The notes beneath the pieces were generated by a model. The model was not told the DNA's origin and did not search any database. It saw nothing but the letters and a program-made list of their open reading frames with translations. Shown here piece by piece: positions 2 to 3,274 of a stretch of DNA of 3,274 nucleotides. The translations under genes were made by a program, and so were the position numbers. Position 1 is the stretch's first letter, and every line of letters starts with the position of its first letter. Source of the DNA: Escherichia coli (lineage in GTDB: Bacteria > Pseudomonadota > Gammaproteobacteria > Enterobacterales > Enterobacteriaceae); assembly GCF_003334405.1 (NCBI RefSeq), contig NZ_QOWM01000035.1; one strand, 5' to 3'.

Positions 2-472
2 GTGAACAAACTTGATGATTGTTCGTCTCGTATAAAACTGACGTCACCGCAGTTTAAAAATTACTCTGTGCATATTCGGATGGAAAAAGACCGGTTTTCT
101 GTTGTGGGGAGTGTGGATAGTCGCTCCTGGCGTAGTCCGCATCATGTTTGCACGTTATCCAGAAAACGGAATCCCGTTGATATTGCAGCCGATATCGAGC
201 GAAAAATTCTGGTAAATGCTTCGCAGGAGGTGTTACAGGCGATTGAGTATGAGAAACACCAGGTGGAAAAAAAGGACGAAATTCTGATCCTGAAAGGTAT
301 GTTATCGCAACTTGTCCAGCTTGAAAGCTGGTATGGGGCATTGACAGGCTTTAAAGCTGAAAACGGATTGAATGGTAAAGTCACCGAACAGGGCGACAGT
401 TATGATTTACAGATTCGGGGCTTGAGTATAGATCAACTTGTTAAAATTACAGGGTATTTGAAACAGTTATGA
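2..472 (+). CDS. hypothetical protein, 5' end uncertain (frame is open to the window edge; GTG at 2 may not be the true start)
   Basis: 156-codon open frame ending at TGA 470-472. Its stop overlaps the next ATG (ATGA at 469-472), implying translational coupling. No family recognised by eye. Confidence 0.45.
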   Translation: MNKLDDCSSRIKLTSPQFKNYSVHIRMEKDRFSVVGSVDSRSWRSPHHVCTLSRKRNPVDIAADIERKILVNASQEVLQAIEYEKHQVEKKDEILILKGMLSQLVQLESWYGALTGFKAENGLNGKVTEQGDSYDLQIRGLSIDQLVKITGYLKQL

Positions 473-720
473 GAAAAAATAAAGGTGATGTGACTTATTT
501 TCTTGAAAAAGAAGGTGACAATTACAGGCTTACAAAAAGGATAAAAGCCAGAACAAATGTTAAAATCGGGAACAAAACTACGAAAATTACATTGTATGAT
601 GCCGTACTGAATGAGAATGAATTACAACATATTGATTTTACGTGTGCCGGATTAAGGGAAGACGATGAGACGCCAGTTAAGAATTTAATTAAGGAGTTTA
701 TGTTAAATGAAACCCGATAA
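469..720 (+). CDS. small basic hypothetical protein (83 aa), possible toxin-like partner of the downstream HTH protein
   Basis: ATG 469 overlaps the upstream stop. Lys/Arg-rich product. Its 3' end overlaps the next ORF by 14 nt. No strong SD of its own, consistent with coupling. No motif recognised. Confidence 0.45.
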   Translation: MRKNKGDVTYFLEKEGDNYRLTKRIKARTNVKIGNKTTKITLYDAVLNENELQHIDFTCAGLREDDETPVKNLIKEFMLNETR

Positions 721-934
721 TACACCTGAAAATGTAAAAAAATTACGTTTAAAAGCAGGATTAACACAAAAGGAATGCAGTCATATTTATGGTGTTGGGC
801 TAAGAACCTGGCAGAAAAAAGAGGAAGTTAATACTCAAAACAGTCAAAGTCTGTCACTGGTTGAGTTTGAGTTTCTTTTGTTACTTGCAGGAGAACATCC
901 TGAATACGTGCTCTGCAAAAGGCAGTCAAAATAA
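707..934 (+). CDS. XRE-family helix-turn-helix DNA-binding protein (putative regulator or antitoxin)
   Basis: SD AAGGAG at 691-696, ATG at 707. Translation has an XRE/Cro-C1 type HTH signature (VKKLRLKAGLTQKECSHIYGVGLRTWQKKE). The tail LLLLAGEHPEY resembles HigA/MqsA-type antitoxin C-termini as I remember them. Confidence 0.6.
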   Translation: MKPDNTPENVKKLRLKAGLTQKECSHIYGVGLRTWQKKEEVNTQNSQSLSLVEFEFLLLLAGEHPEYVLCKRQSK

Positions 935-960: not shown

Positions 961-1240
961 TTCCTGGAGTTGCGCCCGTAGTTCGCTGACGCTCACACGC
1001 GCAGTACAGCGCCCCGTCCAGGGAAATCCTGGACGGCGTAAACTCGCTGGCGCGAGCGCTAACTGCGGCATTCTGCGGCGCAAATCAGCGTCATCGTTGT
1101 CTGCGAGTCAGTCGGGCTTAGCAGGGCGGGAAGGTGGTCGTGGTTCCGGTCGGTTACGGTAGCGGCGTTGCCGCGTTTCGGGGCGATGTGGCTCCTGTGC
1201 TGCCCTGGTATTTTCGTTCGCCCCTTCCATCCGCTTACGC
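961..1240. other. GC-rich non-coding segment of unknown nature (candidate structured RNA, gene relic or recombination-site remnant)
   Basis: Hand count 177/280 G+C (~63%) against ~36% for 1381-1480. Hairpins: CGTCCAGG-gaaat-CCTGGACG (1015-1035) and GCGGC-gtt-GCCGC (1162-1174). 10-nt-period repeats: CTGCGGC at 1063-1069 and 1073-1079, GGTT(C/A)CGGT at 1142-1160. The only ORFs (1059..1262 -, 1168..1359 +) start at TTG with no SD. Confidence 0.4.
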
Positions 1241-1293
1241 GGATTAAAAAACGTGATAACAATCACTTATCGAGTAAAAAAACGGAAGAACAC

Positions 1294-1322
1294 TTGCAAA
1301 TACGACTTAAGGGTCGTATTAT
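1294..1322 (+). promoter_or_regulatory. sigma70-like promoter for the three-gene operon (TTGCAA, 17-nt spacer, TATTAT)
   Basis: -35 TTGCAA at 1294-1299 and -10 TATTAT at 1317-1322 with a 17-nt spacer, about 60 nt upstream of the first ATG. The predicted leader contains a GGGG-aatgg-CCCC hairpin (1336-1348). Confidence 0.45.
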
Positions 1323-1382
1323 TGTTTCATCGAAAGGGGAATGGCCCCTCTCACAATAGCCCAGCAGGGCAGGAGATTTAAA

Positions 1383-1682
1383 ATGAAATGCTCATCTGTT
1401 TTTACTTCAACCACTAATCATGTTTTCACATTCGAACGAGTAACGCTTTGCACTATTATCCTTATGCATAAGGATACGGGACAACAGTATGTTGTCATAT
1501 TTACTGATAACAATAAAATTCGTGACTATAAAACCGGAATTGTTCCTCAGTTTGGCGAACTTAAGCAGAGTGATGTTGATTTAGTCCTTTTCTACAGGGA
1601 CGAATATGAAAAATATTTTGATTCGTTAAAAGATGGCGATGAATGCTTGAGTTTTAAAGATTTTATTGAGTGCCTTCGTTAA
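1383..1682 (+). CDS. hypothetical protein (99 aa), first gene of the operon
   Basis: SD AGGAG at 1371-1375, 7 nt before ATG 1383. In frame with listed ORF 1341..1682, but the 1341 start lies inside the leader hairpin and lacks an SD. No family recognised. Confidence 0.55.
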   Translation: MKCSSVFTSTTNHVFTFERVTLCTIILMHKDTGQQYVVIFTDNNKIRDYKTGIVPQFGELKQSDVDLVLFYRDEYEKYFDSLKDGDECLSFKDFIECLR

Positions 1683-1690
1683 GCATTATA

Positions 1691-1716
1691 AATGCAGGGG
1701 GGAACCCTGCATTTTC
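1691..1716 (+). promoter_or_regulatory. intercistronic stem-loop (possible attenuator or partial terminator, or mRNA stability element)
   Basis: AATGCAGGG (1691-1699) pairs with CCCTGCATT (1705-1713) around loop GGGAA. A short U-run follows, then the SD of the next gene. Confidence 0.3.
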
Positions 1717-1734
1717 CTGAAAGGAGTTGATTTT

Positions 1735-2109
1735 ATGAAAAGTGTTTATGTTGTTGGCAAAGGTTTAATCGTTGCCGGTAATAAAATTACAATCGATGGA
1801 AAAGAGCATGTCTCGGTAGAAAATAGTGAAAACATTGTTGTCACTGATGATTGTATTAAAATTGGTAATAAAACAGTGGTTTTTAAAGGCAGGAGTATTA
1901 AGATAGAAATACATGGAAATGTAAATAAAATAGTAACCGAAAATGCTGATGTCAGTATTCATGGGAATGCTGGGGATGTTGAAACCGTGAGTGGTGATGT
2001 TGATTGTCGTCAGGTTAATGGCGATATAACCACTGTAAGCGGTGATGTTACTTGTGGCGATGTTTCTGGTGACGTAACCACTGTAAGCGGAGATATAAAC
2101 AGAAAATGA
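1735..2109 (+). CDS. Gly/Val-rich repeat protein (124 aa), predicted beta-helix, bactofilin-like
   Basis: SD AAGGAG at 1721-1726, 8 nt before ATG 1735. Product has recurring V-x-G-(D/N)-(V/I) elements at alternating 8-9 residue spacing (VSIHGNAGDVETVSGDVDCRQVNGDITTVSGDVTCGDVSGDVTTVSGDIN). Listed ORF 1666 start is TTG with no SD. Confidence 0.6.
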   Translation: MKSVYVVGKGLIVAGNKITIDGKEHVSVENSENIVVTDDCIKIGNKTVVFKGRSIKIEIHGNVNKIVTENADVSIHGNAGDVETVSGDVDCRQVNGDITTVSGDVTCGDVSGDVTTVSGDINRK

Positions 2110-2417
2110 TCACGGAATCGGATATGCTTACTGAAGCTAAAAAAATGGCAGTAGAGATGATGTTCTGGCCTGCTTGTCCTGTAGATGATGATTATTGTTT
2201 CGACGCTATAATGTATACATCAGTTATTGACAAGAAGTTTGAAGATGAACATGGGGTATATCTTCATCAGGTTTACAAAGAACTATGCTCAACACCTGAA
2301 TTAAAAAAACTTCTAAAAAAGAAAGCAATAAAATTGATTGCTTTTAAGCACGATATTGATCTTGATTCAGCTAACAAGACTTTAATGAAAAATATGCTAA
2401 GGAGGATTGAAAACTGA
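2106..2417 (+). CDS. hypothetical protein (103 aa), third gene of the operon
   Basis: ATG 2106 overlaps the upstream stop (ATGA at 2106-2109), so translationally coupled. Stop TGA at 2415-2417. No family recognised. Confidence 0.55.
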   Translation: MITESDMLTEAKKMAVEMMFWPACPVDDDYCFDAIMYTSVIDKKFEDEHGVYLHQVYKELCSTPELKKLLKKKAIKLIAFKHDIDLDSANKTLMKNMLRRIEN

Positions 2418-2491: not shown

Positions 2492-2629
2492 ATGTCAACG
2501 CGGCAGATCGTACAGCTTGCTGATTCCCTTGTCAAAGGCTGGGAAACCAGAATTCCGGCAATGAAATTTAGTGAATGGGATCAATTCCGGTGGTGGTTAA
2601 ACTACCTGCAAGGGTATGAAATGTTTTAA
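2492..2629 (+). CDS. candidate small protein (45 aa), absent from the supplied ORF track
   Basis: SD GAGG at 2481-2484, 7 nt before ATG 2492. 45 sense codons then TAA at 2627-2629, followed directly by an intrinsic terminator. Product MSTRQIVQLADSLVKGWETRIPAMKFSEWDQFRWWLNYLQGYEMF is Trp-rich and not low-complexity. Confidence 0.35.
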   Translation: MSTRQIVQLADSLVKGWETRIPAMKFSEWDQFRWWLNYLQGYEMF

Positions 2630-2631
2630 AT

Positions 2632-2666
2632 AAAAAAAAGGGGCTTTCTGCCCCTTTGTATTTTTT
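2632..2666 (+). terminator. rho-independent terminator, potentially bidirectional
   Basis: A-run, GGGGC (2640-2644), loop TTTCT, GCCCC (2650-2654), then TTTGTATTTTTT. The flanking A and T runs can extend the stem and would allow termination in both directions. Confidence 0.6.
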
Positions 2667-2693
2667 GACAAAAATGCTATGTGTAACTATAAT
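2665..2693 (+). promoter_or_regulatory. sigma70 promoter matching consensus (TTGACA, 17-nt spacer, TATAAT) for the hicAB-like operon
   Basis: -35 TTGACA at 2665-2670 and -10 TATAAT at 2688-2693 with a 17-nt spacer. A short inverted repeat AACTA-taat-TAGTT (2685-2698) overlaps the -10 and could be an operator. Confidence 0.6.
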
Positions 2694-2721
2694 TAGTTGC
2701 ATATCTATAGGGGATGGATTT

Positions 2722-2970
2722 ATGGGGAAAACAGATAAGCTACTGGCAAAGTTTTTAAACAGTAAAAAAACGTTTGAATGGGATGAACTGGTCGTTTTGT
2801 TTTCCTCTTTGGGATATGTCAAAAAGGAAATGCAGGGGTCAAGAGTGCGGTTTTTCAATGCTGAAATCAATCACACCATATTAATGCATCGTCCACATCC
2901 GGAAAGTTATATCAAAGGTGGTACGCTGAAAGCAATTAAACAGAATCTGAAAGAGGCTGGATTATTATGA
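2722..2970 (+). CDS. hicA: HicA-family type II toxin (mRNA interferase-like), 82 aa
   Basis: SD AGGGGA at 2709-2714, 7 nt before ATG 2722. Product ends in a HicA-like pattern (GS..., HRPHP, KAIKQNLKEAGLL). Stop overlaps the downstream start (ATGA at 2967-2970). The listed 2656 start lies inside the promoter and is rejected. Confidence 0.8.
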   Translation: MGKTDKLLAKFLNSKKTFEWDELVVLFSSLGYVKKEMQGSRVRFFNAEINHTILMHRPHPESYIKGGTLKAIKQNLKEAGLL

Positions 2971-3274
2971 AACATTTAAAATATAAAGGATATTTAGGCA
3001 CGGTTGAACCCGATTTTGAAAATAATGTCCTGTATGGGAAACTGGCGTTTATTCGGGACCTGGTAACTTATGAGGCTTCTACATTAGCTGAACTGGAACA
3101 GGAGTTTAAAACATCTGTTGATCTGTATTTACAGTCTTGTGTGGAGGATGGAAAGGAACCTGATACCCCGTTTAAAGGCGTGTTTAACGTCAGGCTTGAT
3201 CCAGAACTGCATCGTCGGGTAGCAGAAATGGCGATGGAAGAAGATTTATCACTGAACGCCTTTGTTAATAAGGC
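2967..3274 (+). CDS. hicB: HicB-family type II antitoxin, 3'-partial (runs off window end)
   Basis: ATG 2967 overlaps the hicA stop. Frame is open for 102 codons to the window edge. Product starts MKHLKYKGYLGTVEPDFENNVLYGKLAFIRDLVTYEA and reaches a ribbon-helix-helix-like stretch (FNVRLDPELHRRVAEMAMEEDLSLNAFVNK). Not in the ORF track because no stop lies in the window. Confidence 0.8.
   Translation, partial: MKHLKYKGYLGTVEPDFENNVLYGKLAFIRDLVTYEASTLAELEQEFKTSVDLYLQSCVEDGKEPDTPFKGVFNVRLDPELHRRVAEMAMEEDLSLNAFVNK

What the first reader, a model, noticed from the sequence alone, without database searches (positions are those of the whole stretch)
2..934. Translationally coupled triad ending in an XRE-HTH protein with an antitoxin-like tail
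Three consecutive ORFs overlap (ATGA at 469-472, 14-nt overlap at 707-720), indicating stoichiometric co-expression. The last is a 75-aa XRE-type HTH protein whose C-terminus resembles HigA/MqsA-type antitoxins, and the 83-aa basic protein before it has no toxin fold I recognise. The order (small basic protein, then HTH protein) mimics HigB-HigA or MqsR-MqsA, so this may be a non-canonical toxin-antitoxin or abortive-infection module with an extra upstream component.
Basis: partly seen in the sequence, partly recalled or inferred. Interest (0 to 1): 0.5.

Follow-up and report, generated by a model that had tools for sequence, protein, structure and literature searches.

The report
Plasmid early-entry operon with its own repressor
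The three overlapping genes are real and are the tail of a four-gene operon in the part of IncX4-type resistance plasmids that enters a new cell first. The last gene most likely encodes the repressor that shuts this early operon off, not a classical antitoxin.

Summary
ORF1 (180 aa, its start lies 71 nt before the window), ORF2 (83 aa) and ORF3 (75 aa) overlap by ATGA and by 14 nt. The same order recurs in IncX4, IncI2, IncX3, IncX7 and related Enterobacterales plasmids, and ORF1 is found in 2,057 plasmid records.

The window is IncX4 backbone. It lies 2.6-3.6 kb from a predicted RP4-type nick site, in the leading region, with the transferred strand as template. The triad follows a J-domain gene.

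ORF3 is only the MqsA-C-terminal/Xre helix-turn-helix domain, with no toxin-binding domain. ORF2 gives a confident model (four strands plus a helix) that matches no RelE, ParE, HigB or MqsR fold. ORF1 has a secretion-chaperone/PsiB-like N-domain.

Every lineage with ORF3 has a plasmid-specific perfect inverted repeat between the -35 and -10 of a repeated promoter cassette (window 1300-1319). The one lineage without ORF3 also lacks the repeat but keeps ORF2.

I read ORF3 as an Aca/ArdK-like repressor of early operons. The published "TA-like" TsxAB of IncX4 is probably ORF2/ORF3, but I could not verify this. ORF2 and ORF3 co-diverge, so a direct partnership is still possible.

The parts
2..472 (+). 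3' 471 nt of ORF1. The full gene is 180 aa and its ATG lies 71 nt upstream of the window (cds16 of pHNSHP23; UniProt G8GYH4 of pJIE143).
469..720 (+). ORF2, 83 aa ('YajB'; probably TsxA). A small protein of four strands plus a helix, translationally coupled to ORF1 through the ATGA at 469-472.
   Evidence: No Shine-Dalgarno sequence of its own. AF2 pLDDT 89. No toxin fold. No Pfam family. Only 24 representative clusters among 1.84 billion proteins.
707..934 (+). ORF3, 75 aa ('YajA'; probably TsxB). A stand-alone Xre/MqsA-C-terminal-type HTH protein and the predicted repressor. Its Shine-Dalgarno AAGGAG is at 691-696.
   Evidence: Pfam PF15731 model positions 70-126 of 131, and PF20432, in all 4 members tested. 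Best PDB sequence matches are 3mlf, the MqsA C-domain and Aca3. TIGR03830 matches below its cut-off, and phrog_7950 'repressor' matches.
970..1385 (+). Second copy of a ~415-nt promoter/leader cassette. Its 5' part (970-1260) is GC-rich. It is identical to the copy upstream of the J-domain gene (L001 10895-11310), and it drives the next operon (ATG at 1383).
   Evidence: 100% direct repeat, with the alignment running up to the ATG. 2-4 copies per plasmid in about 1,190 plasmids. GC 61% against 33-43% in the ORFs. No Rfam match.
1294..1322 (+). Sigma-70-like promoter TTGCAA-17-TATTAT. The perfect inverted repeat ATACGAC-TTAAGG-GTCGTAT (1300-1319) fills the spacer and overlaps the -10. This repeat is the predicted ORF3 operator.
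   Evidence: Promoter scan. The repeat occurs at only two sites in the whole plasmid, with 0.03 expected by chance. Lineage-specific equivalents sit at the same position in all ORF3-bearing lineages (imperfect in one), and the repeat is absent in the ORF3-less lineage.
1383..2417 (+). Downstream operon behind the second cassette, encoding proteins of 99, 124 and about 97-103 aa. It is a predicted member of the same ORF3 regulon.
   Evidence: ORFs and annotation. It has the same promoter, operator and leader as the J-ORF1-ORF2-ORF3 operon. Function is unknown: the only family matches are to unnamed PHROGs (phrog_2061, phrog_3163).

Best explanation
The triad is the distal part of a four-gene operon (J-domain protein, ORF1, ORF2, ORF3) in the leading region of IncX4-type MOBP plasmids. 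This is the DNA that enters a recipient first.

- **ORF3 as repressor.** ORF3 is a small dimeric HTH repressor. It binds the plasmid-specific inverted repeat between the -35 and -10 of a repeated promoter cassette. That cassette precedes this operon and the next one.
- **Expected behaviour.** On entry into a cell that has no ORF3, the cassettes fire. ORF3, made last from the same transcript, then shuts them down. This is negative feedback, or zygotic induction, as with Aca proteins of anti-CRISPR operons or ArdK/KorA of IncW/IncN/IncP plasmids.
- **ORF1 and ORF2.** They are made together through the ATGA coupling and probably act as a complex in plasmid establishment. Their activity is unknown.
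- **The 'antitoxin' phenotype.** Loss of ORF3 would give runaway expression of ORF2, ORF1, the J protein and the other cassette genes. That would look like loss of an antitoxin.

Shown here: gene order, coupling, folds, the HTH family, the operator-like repeats and their co-occurrence with ORF3, and the position relative to the nick motif. Inferred: DNA binding, repression, the burst of expression on entry, and the cause of toxicity.
For: 1. **ORF3 is only an HTH domain** of MqsA-C/Xre type.
2. **An inverted repeat sits in the promoter spacer of every ORF3-bearing lineage.** The arms are perfect (7-12 nt) in nine lineages and imperfect in one (L017), and always lie between TTGnnn and TAT(T/A)AT of the cassette. 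All copies within one plasmid share the repeat, and different plasmids carry different repeats:
   - IncX4: ATACGAC-6-GTCGTAT
   - IncI2: ATACATCTA-2-TAGATGTAT
   - Proteus and Xenorhabdus: ATACGCC-6-GGCGTAT
   - IncX3 and Mixta: ACCATCA-2-TGATGGT
   - Arsenophonus, Erwinia, Morganella and Pantoea variants.
3. **The repeat is rare.** In the IncX4 plasmid it occurs only at the two cassettes, with 0.03 expected by chance.
4. **Repeat and ORF3 are lost together.** The K. electrica-type lineage keeps J, ORF1, ORF2 and 3-4 cassettes. It has no ORF3 on the complete 35-kb plasmid and no repeat in the spacer. A different palindrome has appeared upstream of its -35.
5. **The start of the predicted recognition helix tracks the half-site.** LR(T/G)W goes with ATACG(A/C)C, and LS(T/S)W goes with ATAC(A/C)TC.
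6. **IncX4 and IncI2 are mosaic.** J and ORF1 are 95-99% identical in DNA. The cassettes, ORF2 and ORF3 are 50-75% identical, so operator and ORF3 stay matched.
7. **Leading-region position.** TATCCTG|C lies directly after a 23-nt inverted repeat on the minus strand, upstream of ddp1/taxC. This is the RP4-type layout, it recurs in IncX3, and all genes from J to hicB use that strand as template.
8. **Published Tn5 data fit.** tsxB tolerates no insertion. Insertions in cds16 (ORF1) and tsxA are lost on mating, yet a clean cds16 deletion costs only about 4-fold (PMC8725589).
Against: - No binding or expression data exist for ORF3.
- The symmetric changes in the repeat would also preserve an RNA or single-strand DNA hairpin. 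One G-T wobble in a Proteus copy would suit an RNA hairpin.
- The helix-to-half-site correlation rests on about ten related lineages.
- ORF2 and ORF3 co-diverge strongly. Simple regulation does not predict this, and it would fit direct ORF2-ORF3 binding.
- The identity of TsxAB with ORF2/ORF3 is unverified.
- The nick site is a motif match (3 in 18 kb against 1.8 expected). It is convincing only because of where it sits.
Confidence: 0.6

Rival explanations
1. A genuine, non-canonical type II or tripartite toxin-antitoxin system. ORF2 (TsxA) is a toxin of a new fold. ORF3 (TsxB) neutralises it by direct binding and autoregulates the operon. ORF1 acts as a chaperone-like third component.
For: - The order 'small protein then HTH' with overlapping genes.
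- Co-divergence of ORF2 and ORF3, r=0.75, and their co-segregation in the IncX4/IncI2 mosaic.
- The HTH is of the MqsA/Xre-antitoxin type.
- TsxAB is published as TA-like in IncX4, and its antitoxin gene is free of Tn5 insertions.
- The ORF1 N-domain has a chaperone-like fold, which recalls toxin-antitoxin-chaperone systems.
Against: - No similarity to any toxin fold or family.
- ORF3 has no extension beyond the HTH domain with which to bind a toxin.
- ORF2 stays intact in a widespread lineage with no ORF3 on the plasmid.
- The pair is not found as a free two-gene cassette, or in phages.
- The operator-like repeat lies 1.4 kb upstream, before the J gene, and also before another operon.
Confidence: 0.25
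2. The inverted repeat is a structural hairpin in the mRNA leader or in the transferred single strand, for example part of a single-strand promoter or priming signal. ORF3 would then regulate something else, such as host genes. EcaR, an XRE regulator of IncI2 plasmids that activates the host wecE promoter, is a published example of that kind.
For: - The changes in the repeat are compensatory, as they would be in a hairpin.
- Further small leader hairpins also show compensatory changes.
- The cassette folds somewhat better than shuffled sequence on both strands, z about -3.4.
- EcaR is reported on IncI2/IncX4 plasmids (PMC12612032). The ORF3 homolog is the only product on a typical IncI2 plasmid that some GenBank records annotate as an XRE regulator.
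Against: - The repeat disappears exactly where ORF3 is absent, while the rest of the promoter and leader is kept.
- Its position in the -35/-10 spacer is the classical position of a repressor operator.
- No long Frpo-like hairpin encloses the promoter, and there is no Rfam match.
- No IncI2- or IncX4-type repeat lies within 500 bp upstream of wecE in E. coli K-12.
- The EcaR sequence could not be obtained.
Confidence: 0.1
3. An abortive-infection or anti-phage defence module carried by the plasmid.
For: Only the general resemblance to small toxin-plus-regulator defence pairs. The PADLOC matches of ORF1 to PtuB are weak (E 0.02-0.03).
Against: No defence-library match for ORF2 or ORF3. The location is the leading region, oriented for early expression, where anti-defence and establishment genes are typical (PMC11541004). 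The module is conserved as plasmid backbone rather than as a variable island.
Confidence: 0.03

Closest known systems
Aca proteins (anti-CRISPR-associated HTH repressors) and the leading-region or global repressors of other conjugative plasmids (ArdK of IncW/IncN, KorA/KorB of IncP). The comparison rests on established knowledge of these systems.
   Same: A small HTH protein encoded at the end of an operon of early-acting genes. A palindromic operator overlaps a strong promoter. Negative feedback gives a burst of expression on entry, and loss of the repressor is harmful because of runaway transcription. The profile of the ORF3 family matches the Aca3 sequence in the PDB (E 2e-4).
   Different: The HTH belongs to the MqsA-C/Xre-like branch. 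The controlled genes (J-domain protein, ORF1, ORF2 and others) belong to no known anti-defence family. The operator sits in a repeated ~415-nt cassette whose sequence is specific to each plasmid. Repression itself has not been shown.
MqsR-MqsA and HigB-HigA type II toxin-antitoxin systems
   Same: The upstream small gene overlaps a downstream HTH gene. The ORF3 HTH domain matches the C-terminal domain of MqsA (PF15731).
   Different: ORF2 has no RelE, MqsR or HigB fold. ORF3 lacks the zinc-binding N-domain of MqsA that holds the toxin. The operon also carries two larger upstream genes. ORF2 can exist without ORF3.
TsxAB, the 'toxin-antitoxin-like' stability system of IncX4 plasmid pJIE143 (Bustamante & Iredell, J Antimicrob Chemother 2019; known here only through citations)
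   Same: Same plasmid group. Gene order is toxin first, then antitoxin. The antitoxin gene is essential in Tn5 libraries, and tsxA was hit in the transfer screen together with cds16, which the primers show to be ORF1. ORF2/ORF3 is the only uncharacterised small-protein-plus-HTH pair on the IncX4 backbone.
   Different: The identity is not verified because the paper is not held. If they are the same, this work adds the leading-region context, the four-gene operon, the folds and the operator.
PsiB, the anti-SOS protein of F-like leading regions, and class I type III secretion chaperones / the YbjN family

Membership tests
Type II TA, MqsRA/HigBA type | A toxin with a RelE/MqsR/HigB-like ribonuclease fold, or any other known toxin family | tested here: not met
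Type II TA, MqsRA/HigBA type | An antitoxin with a toxin-binding domain in addition to the HTH (MqsA: an N-terminal zinc-ribbon domain) | tested here: not met
   ORF3 is 75 aa. The Pfam MqsA match covers only model positions 70-126 of 131, on residues 6-67. The PDB alignments cover only the HTH domain.
Type II TA, MqsRA/HigBA type | Toxin and antitoxin always occur together, and the pair moves between genomic contexts as a cassette | tested here: not met
   ORF2 occurs without ORF3 on a complete plasmid and in 115 blocks of the contig collection. Wherever the pair occurs it sits inside the J-ORF1 operon of Enterobacterales plasmids. It is absent from phages.
Type II TA, MqsRA/HigBA type | Growth arrest by the toxin and rescue by the antitoxin | not testable with these tools
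   The only evidence is the cited TsxAB report and the Tn5 data. Whether TsxAB is ORF2/ORF3 is inferred.
Aca/ArdK-like autorepressor of an early operon | A small HTH gene at the distal end of the operon it controls | tested here: met
   ORF3 is last in J-ORF1-ORF2-ORF3. No promoter-like site lies between the cassette and ORF3.
Aca/ArdK-like autorepressor of an early operon | A palindromic operator overlapping the core promoter, present wherever the repressor is present | tested here: met
   An inverted repeat sits in the -35/-10 spacer in all ten ORF3-bearing lineages examined, perfect in nine and imperfect in one. It is absent from all cassettes of the ORF3-less lineage. It is unique to the cassettes in IncX4.
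Aca/ArdK-like autorepressor of an early operon | Demonstrated binding and repression | not testable with these tools
   This needs EMSA or footprinting and reporter assays.
Leading-region (early-entry) gene set | Lies next to oriT on the side transferred first, with the transferred strand as template | tested here: met
   An inverted repeat followed by TATCCTG|C lies on the minus strand at L001 15576-15625, upstream of ddp1/taxC. The same layout is seen in IncX3. All genes from J to hicB are on the plus strand. The nick position is inferred from the RP4-type consensus, not mapped.
Frpo/ssi single-strand promoter | A long imperfect hairpin in the transferred strand that rebuilds a double-stranded -35/-10 | tested here: inconclusive
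   The cassette folds better than shuffles on both strands (z -3.5 and -3.3), but no hairpin encloses the promoter. No Rfam family matches. The GC-rich part is missing in the Proteus and Arsenophonus lineages.
PsiB / secretion-chaperone-like fold (ORF1 N-domain) | Shared fold plus family-level sequence similarity | tested here: inconclusive

The most novel reading that the evidence does not exclude
ORF1 and ORF2 form a new kind of establishment or anti-defence effector pair. One possibility is a PsiB-like RecA/SOS blocker working with a small protein that binds single-stranded nucleic acid. They would be expressed in a burst from plasmid-specific, ORF3-gated promoter cassettes during the first minutes after transfer. 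The published 'toxin-antitoxin-like' behaviour of TsxAB would then be the cost of leaving this burst switched on. The module is backbone in about 2,000 sequenced plasmids, including the main mcr-1 (IncX4, IncI2) and blaNDM (IncX3) carriers.
Probability: 0.25. Interest if true: 0.7.

Novelty: new variant of a known kind. Interest (0 to 1): 0.45.

Why it matters
IncX4, IncI2 and IncX3 plasmids are leading vehicles of colistin (mcr-1) and carbapenem (blaNDM) resistance. ORF1, and with it the operon in every lineage examined, sits in their backbone (2,057 PLSDB records, 1,859 of them predicted conjugative).

If ORF3 is the switch for the first genes expressed in a new host, it is a single point of control for plasmid establishment. 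It would also explain why the 'antitoxin' gene cannot be disrupted. That would recast a reported novel TA system as a regulatory circuit.

It also points to three unstudied proteins (the J-domain protein, ORF1 and ORF2) as candidate establishment factors in plasmids that lack the usual ssb, psiB and ardA genes.

Tried and rejected
- **Family scans.** NCBIfam, PHROGs, PADLOC and Pfam gave nothing above noise for ORF1 or ORF2.
- **Sequence against solved structures.** Nothing for ORF1 or ORF2.
- **ORF2 against the ORF1 C-domain.** Both are four strands plus a helix, but the profile-profile comparison shows no relation.
- **Rfam.** No match over the whole window at a permissive threshold.
- **Phage relatives.** None for any of the three proteins or for the DNA, so the 'phage Cro/CI context' alternative is rejected.
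- **PixR.** It is not ORF3. It is a 97-aa LuxR-type protein encoded downstream of taxC.
- **TsxAB.** The paper is not held. Other papers only cite it, and the PixR supplements carry no plasmid gene table. Identity with ORF2/ORF3 therefore stays inferred.
- **EcaR.** No sequence or supplement is held. The IncI2 homolog is 243 bp, not the 252 bp stated for the EcaR fragment. No IncI2- or IncX4-type repeat lies in the 500 bp upstream of wecE. The link is unresolved.
- **Frpo-type hairpin.** Not found in the cassette.
- **Odd ORF2 homologs.** Two apparent ORF2-ORF3 fusions (P0165, P0173), a 481-aa protein with a C-terminal ORF2-like domain (P0163) and a repetitive 318-aa hit (P0175) look like frameshifts, gene-calling artefacts or noise. 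I did not use them.
Full report
**Where the window comes from.** The window is 100% identical to an E. coli IncX4 conjugative plasmid (NZ_CP070012.1) and 96-98% identical to many other IncX4 plasmids. It has no phage match and no Rfam match. In the 18-kb locus L001 the gene order is as follows:
- the pir replication gene and its iterons;
- a 171-aa J-domain protein;
- ORF1, ORF2 and ORF3;
- three hypothetical genes;
- hicA and hicB;
- ddp1/taxA, the relaxase taxC, pixR, eex and the type IV secretion genes.

The window covers L001 12001-15274.

**Checking the observation.** ORF1 ends at TGA 470-472 and ORF2 starts at ATG 469-471. ORF2 ends at 720 and ORF3 starts at 707, preceded by AAGGAG at 691-696.
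- ORF2 has no ribosome-binding site of its own, so the ATGA overlap is the likely route of its translation.
- ORF1 is cut by the window edge. The real gene is 180 aa and starts 71 nt upstream.
- ORF2 is only mildly basic, with pI 8.7.

The arrangement recurs in IncI2, IncX7, IncX3 and an IncX8-typed Proteus plasmid. It also recurs in contigs from Xenorhabdus, Morganella, Arsenophonus, Erwinia, Pantoea and Mixta. ORF1/ORF2 overlap by 4 nt in 7 of 12 lineages. ORF2/ORF3 overlap in 10 of 11. Where the sequences have drifted beyond BLAST detection, the order 'ORF1, small protein, HTH protein' is still kept.

**The three proteins.**
- *ORF3.* It matches only the C-terminal HTH domain of MqsA (Pfam PF15731, model positions 70-126 of 131) and the Xre-like antitoxin HTH (PF20432) in all four members tested. 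Its best sequence matches among solved structures are a Staphylococcus regulator (3mlf), the MqsA C-domain and Aca3. It has no zinc-ribbon domain and no tail, so the 'antitoxin-like C-terminus' is simply the HTH fold.

**Genomic setting.** Upstream of ddp1/taxC lies a 23-nt inverted repeat followed directly, on the minus strand, by TATCCTG|C. This is the layout of RP4-type (MOBP) nick regions, by established knowledge of RP4 oriT. The same layout appears in IncX3.

If this is the nick, the minus strand is transferred 5' to 3' and the window is the leading region. ORF3 then lies about 2.6 kb and ORF1 about 3.6 kb from the nick. Every gene from the J gene to hicB uses the transferred strand as template. 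That is the pattern reported for leading regions (PMC11541004). The motif alone is not significant (3 matches against 1.8 expected). Its position is what makes it credible.

**The repeated cassette and the operator.** A ~415-nt element is present twice at 100% identity. One copy lies just upstream of the J gene. The other lies just after ORF3 (window 970-1385) and runs up to the ATG of the next gene. It occurs in 2-4 copies in about 1,190 IncX4- and IncI2-type plasmids.

Its 3' part holds a sigma-70-like promoter, TTGCAA-17-TATTAT, and a conserved leader. The perfect inverted repeat ATACGAC-TTAAGG-GTCGTAT fills the promoter spacer. That repeat occurs nowhere else on the plasmid, with 0.03 matches expected by chance.

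Every other lineage that has an ORF3-type gene carries its own inverted repeat at the same place. The repeat is perfect in all but one (L017), is the same in all cassettes of one plasmid, and differs between plasmids.

The Klebsiella electrica-type lineage is the informative exception.
- It keeps the J gene, ORF1, an intact ORF2 and three or four cassettes.
- It has no ORF3 anywhere on a complete 35-kb plasmid.
- Its promoter spacers carry no inverted repeat.
- A new palindrome sits upstream of the -35.

The start of the predicted recognition helix also tracks the half-site. Arg-containing LR(T/G)W goes with ATACG(A/C)C, and LS(T/S)W goes with ATAC(A/C)TC.

Between IncX4 and IncI2, the J gene and ORF1 are 95-99% identical in DNA. 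The cassettes, ORF2 and ORF3 are only 50-75% identical. So the repressor and its presumed operator have stayed matched through recombination.

**Interpretation.** The best reading is that ORF3 represses the cassette promoters. It would then repress its own four-gene operon and the neighbouring early operon. This would give a burst of expression when the plasmid enters a cell without ORF3, followed by shut-off. The logic is that of Aca proteins and of ArdK/KorA-type plasmid repressors. Binding, repression and timing are inferred, not shown.

ORF1 and ORF2 are made together and may form a complex. Their function is unknown. The PsiB-like fold of ORF1 and the weak Pur-alpha-like resemblance of ORF2 are leads only.

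The J-domain protein suggests recruitment of host DnaK. A link to activation of the replication initiator is my speculation from established work on R6K.

**Relation to the literature.**
- *cds16 is ORF1.* The deletion and check primers for 'cds16' in the IncX4 plasmid pHNSHP23 map onto ORF1, the J gene and ORF2 (PMC8725589 supplement).
- *Tn5 data.* In that study, Tn5 insertions in cds16 and in the 'toxin gene tsxA' were lost after mating. The 'antitoxin gene tsxB' had no insertions at all. A clean cds16 deletion lowered transfer only about 4-fold.
- *TsxAB.* It was defined by Bustamante & Iredell (2019), a paper not held here. ORF2/ORF3 is the only uncharacterised small-protein-plus-HTH pair on the backbone. 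I put the identity at about 70-75%. If it holds, the Tn5 pattern fits a repressor whose loss is harmful and insertions upstream that are polar on it.
- *EcaR.* It is an XRE regulator of IncI2 plasmids (PMC12612032) and may be the IncI2 homolog of ORF3. I could not confirm this, and no matching repeat lies upstream of wecE.

**What remains in favour of a toxin-antitoxin reading.** ORF2 and ORF3 co-diverge much more tightly with each other than with ORF1 (Mantel r 0.75 against 0.37 and 0.24). They also travel together in the mosaic. This fits a direct ORF2-ORF3 interaction, whether as toxin and antitoxin, co-repressor or anti-repressor.

Against a classical TA system:
- ORF2 has no toxin fold.
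- ORF3 has no toxin-binding region.
- ORF2 survives without ORF3 in one lineage.
- The pair is confined to one operon context.
- The operator is placed in shared cassettes.

I rate the classical TA reading at about 0.25 and an abortive-infection role as very unlikely.

**Verdict.** The module is better described as a leading-region early operon with its own repressor. It is a new variant of a known regulatory kind, built from uncharacterised proteins, and it is probably identical in part to the published TsxAB. ORF1 is present in 2,057 plasmid records, including IncX3, IncX4 and IncI2 resistance plasmids. Interest is moderate.

Noticed in passing
window 970-1385 and L001 10895-11310: A ~415-nt element is repeated at 100% identity on both sides of the J-ORF1-ORF2-ORF3 block. 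Its 5' 300 nt are 61% GC in an AT-rich plasmid. About 1,190 IncX4/IncI2-type plasmids carry 2-4 copies. The role of the GC-rich part is unknown; a priming or single-strand signal is possible. The Proteus and Arsenophonus lineages keep the promoter and leader but lack the GC-rich part.
   Followed up: partly
window 1323-1382 (same in L001 11248-11309): The leader between the -10 and the ATG has two small hairpins with compensatory changes between lineages. For example, GCCC-AGCA-GGGC just before the Shine-Dalgarno sequence becomes GTCC-AAAC-GGAC in IncI2 and GGCC-AAAA-GGCC in a Plautia symbiont. This may be an mRNA stability or translation element shared by all cassette-driven operons.
   Followed up: partly
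window 2637-3274: A bidirectional terminator-like hairpin (2637-2657) is followed by a perfect consensus promoter TTGACA-17-TATAAT (2665-2693). Then come hicA (2722-2970) and hicB, which overlaps it by 4 nt (2967 onward). This is the known overlapping HicAB subfamily of IncX4 plasmids, reported to add little to stability or competition. Many mcr-1 IncX4 plasmids lack about 14% of the window, and their annotations there list no hicA.
   Followed up: partly
L001 15576-15625 (302-351 nt past the window end): A candidate oriT nick region: a 23-nt inverted repeat followed directly by TATCCTG|C on the minus strand, upstream of ddp1/taxC. The same arrangement is present in an IncX3 plasmid (L027).
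   Followed up: partly
L001 11310-12472 compared with L002 3872-5033: The J gene, the J-ORF1 spacer and ORF1 are 95-99% identical in DNA between IncX4 and IncI2. The flanking cassettes, ORF2 and ORF3 are 50-75% identical. This looks like a recent exchange of the J-ORF1 segment between the two plasmid groups.
   Followed up: yes
L006 2325-2345 and 4525-4545; L012 21067-21249: In the ORF3-less Klebsiella electrica-type plasmids, each cassette has a perfect palindrome TGTGTAATATTACACA just upstream of the -35. The plasmid also carries an unrelated 60-aa XRE gene elsewhere. This may be a replacement repressor-operator pair.
   Followed up: partly
window 1735-2109: The 124-aa protein is labelled 'tail-associated lysozyme' in many RefSeq records. 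It matches only an unnamed PHROG (phrog_3163, E 1e-21) and consists of short repeats rich in G, D, V and T. The product name looks like an annotation carry-over.
   Followed up: no
L001 11826-11929: The 104-nt spacer between the J gene and ORF1 holds two strong hairpins: CGGGGGCGAGAAGCCCCCG, and a 14-bp-arm repeat CCCGTCTTTTGGGG...CCCAAAAAGACGGG (one mismatch in the arms). Neither is followed by a T-run. The spacer is 98% conserved in IncI2. It may be a processing or attenuation site that sets the ratio of J protein to ORF1-3.
   Followed up: no
window 2492-2629: A 45-aa ORF with a plausible Shine-Dalgarno sequence lies between the 97-aa gene and the terminator. It is unannotated in the RefSeq record and has no family match.
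   Followed up: no
L009 and L010 (metagenome contigs): The most distant ORF2-like protein (P0169, 77 aa, profile E 3e-5) stands alone after an ~866-aa gene, with no ORF1 or HTH neighbour. This is the only context found outside the operon.
   Followed up: no
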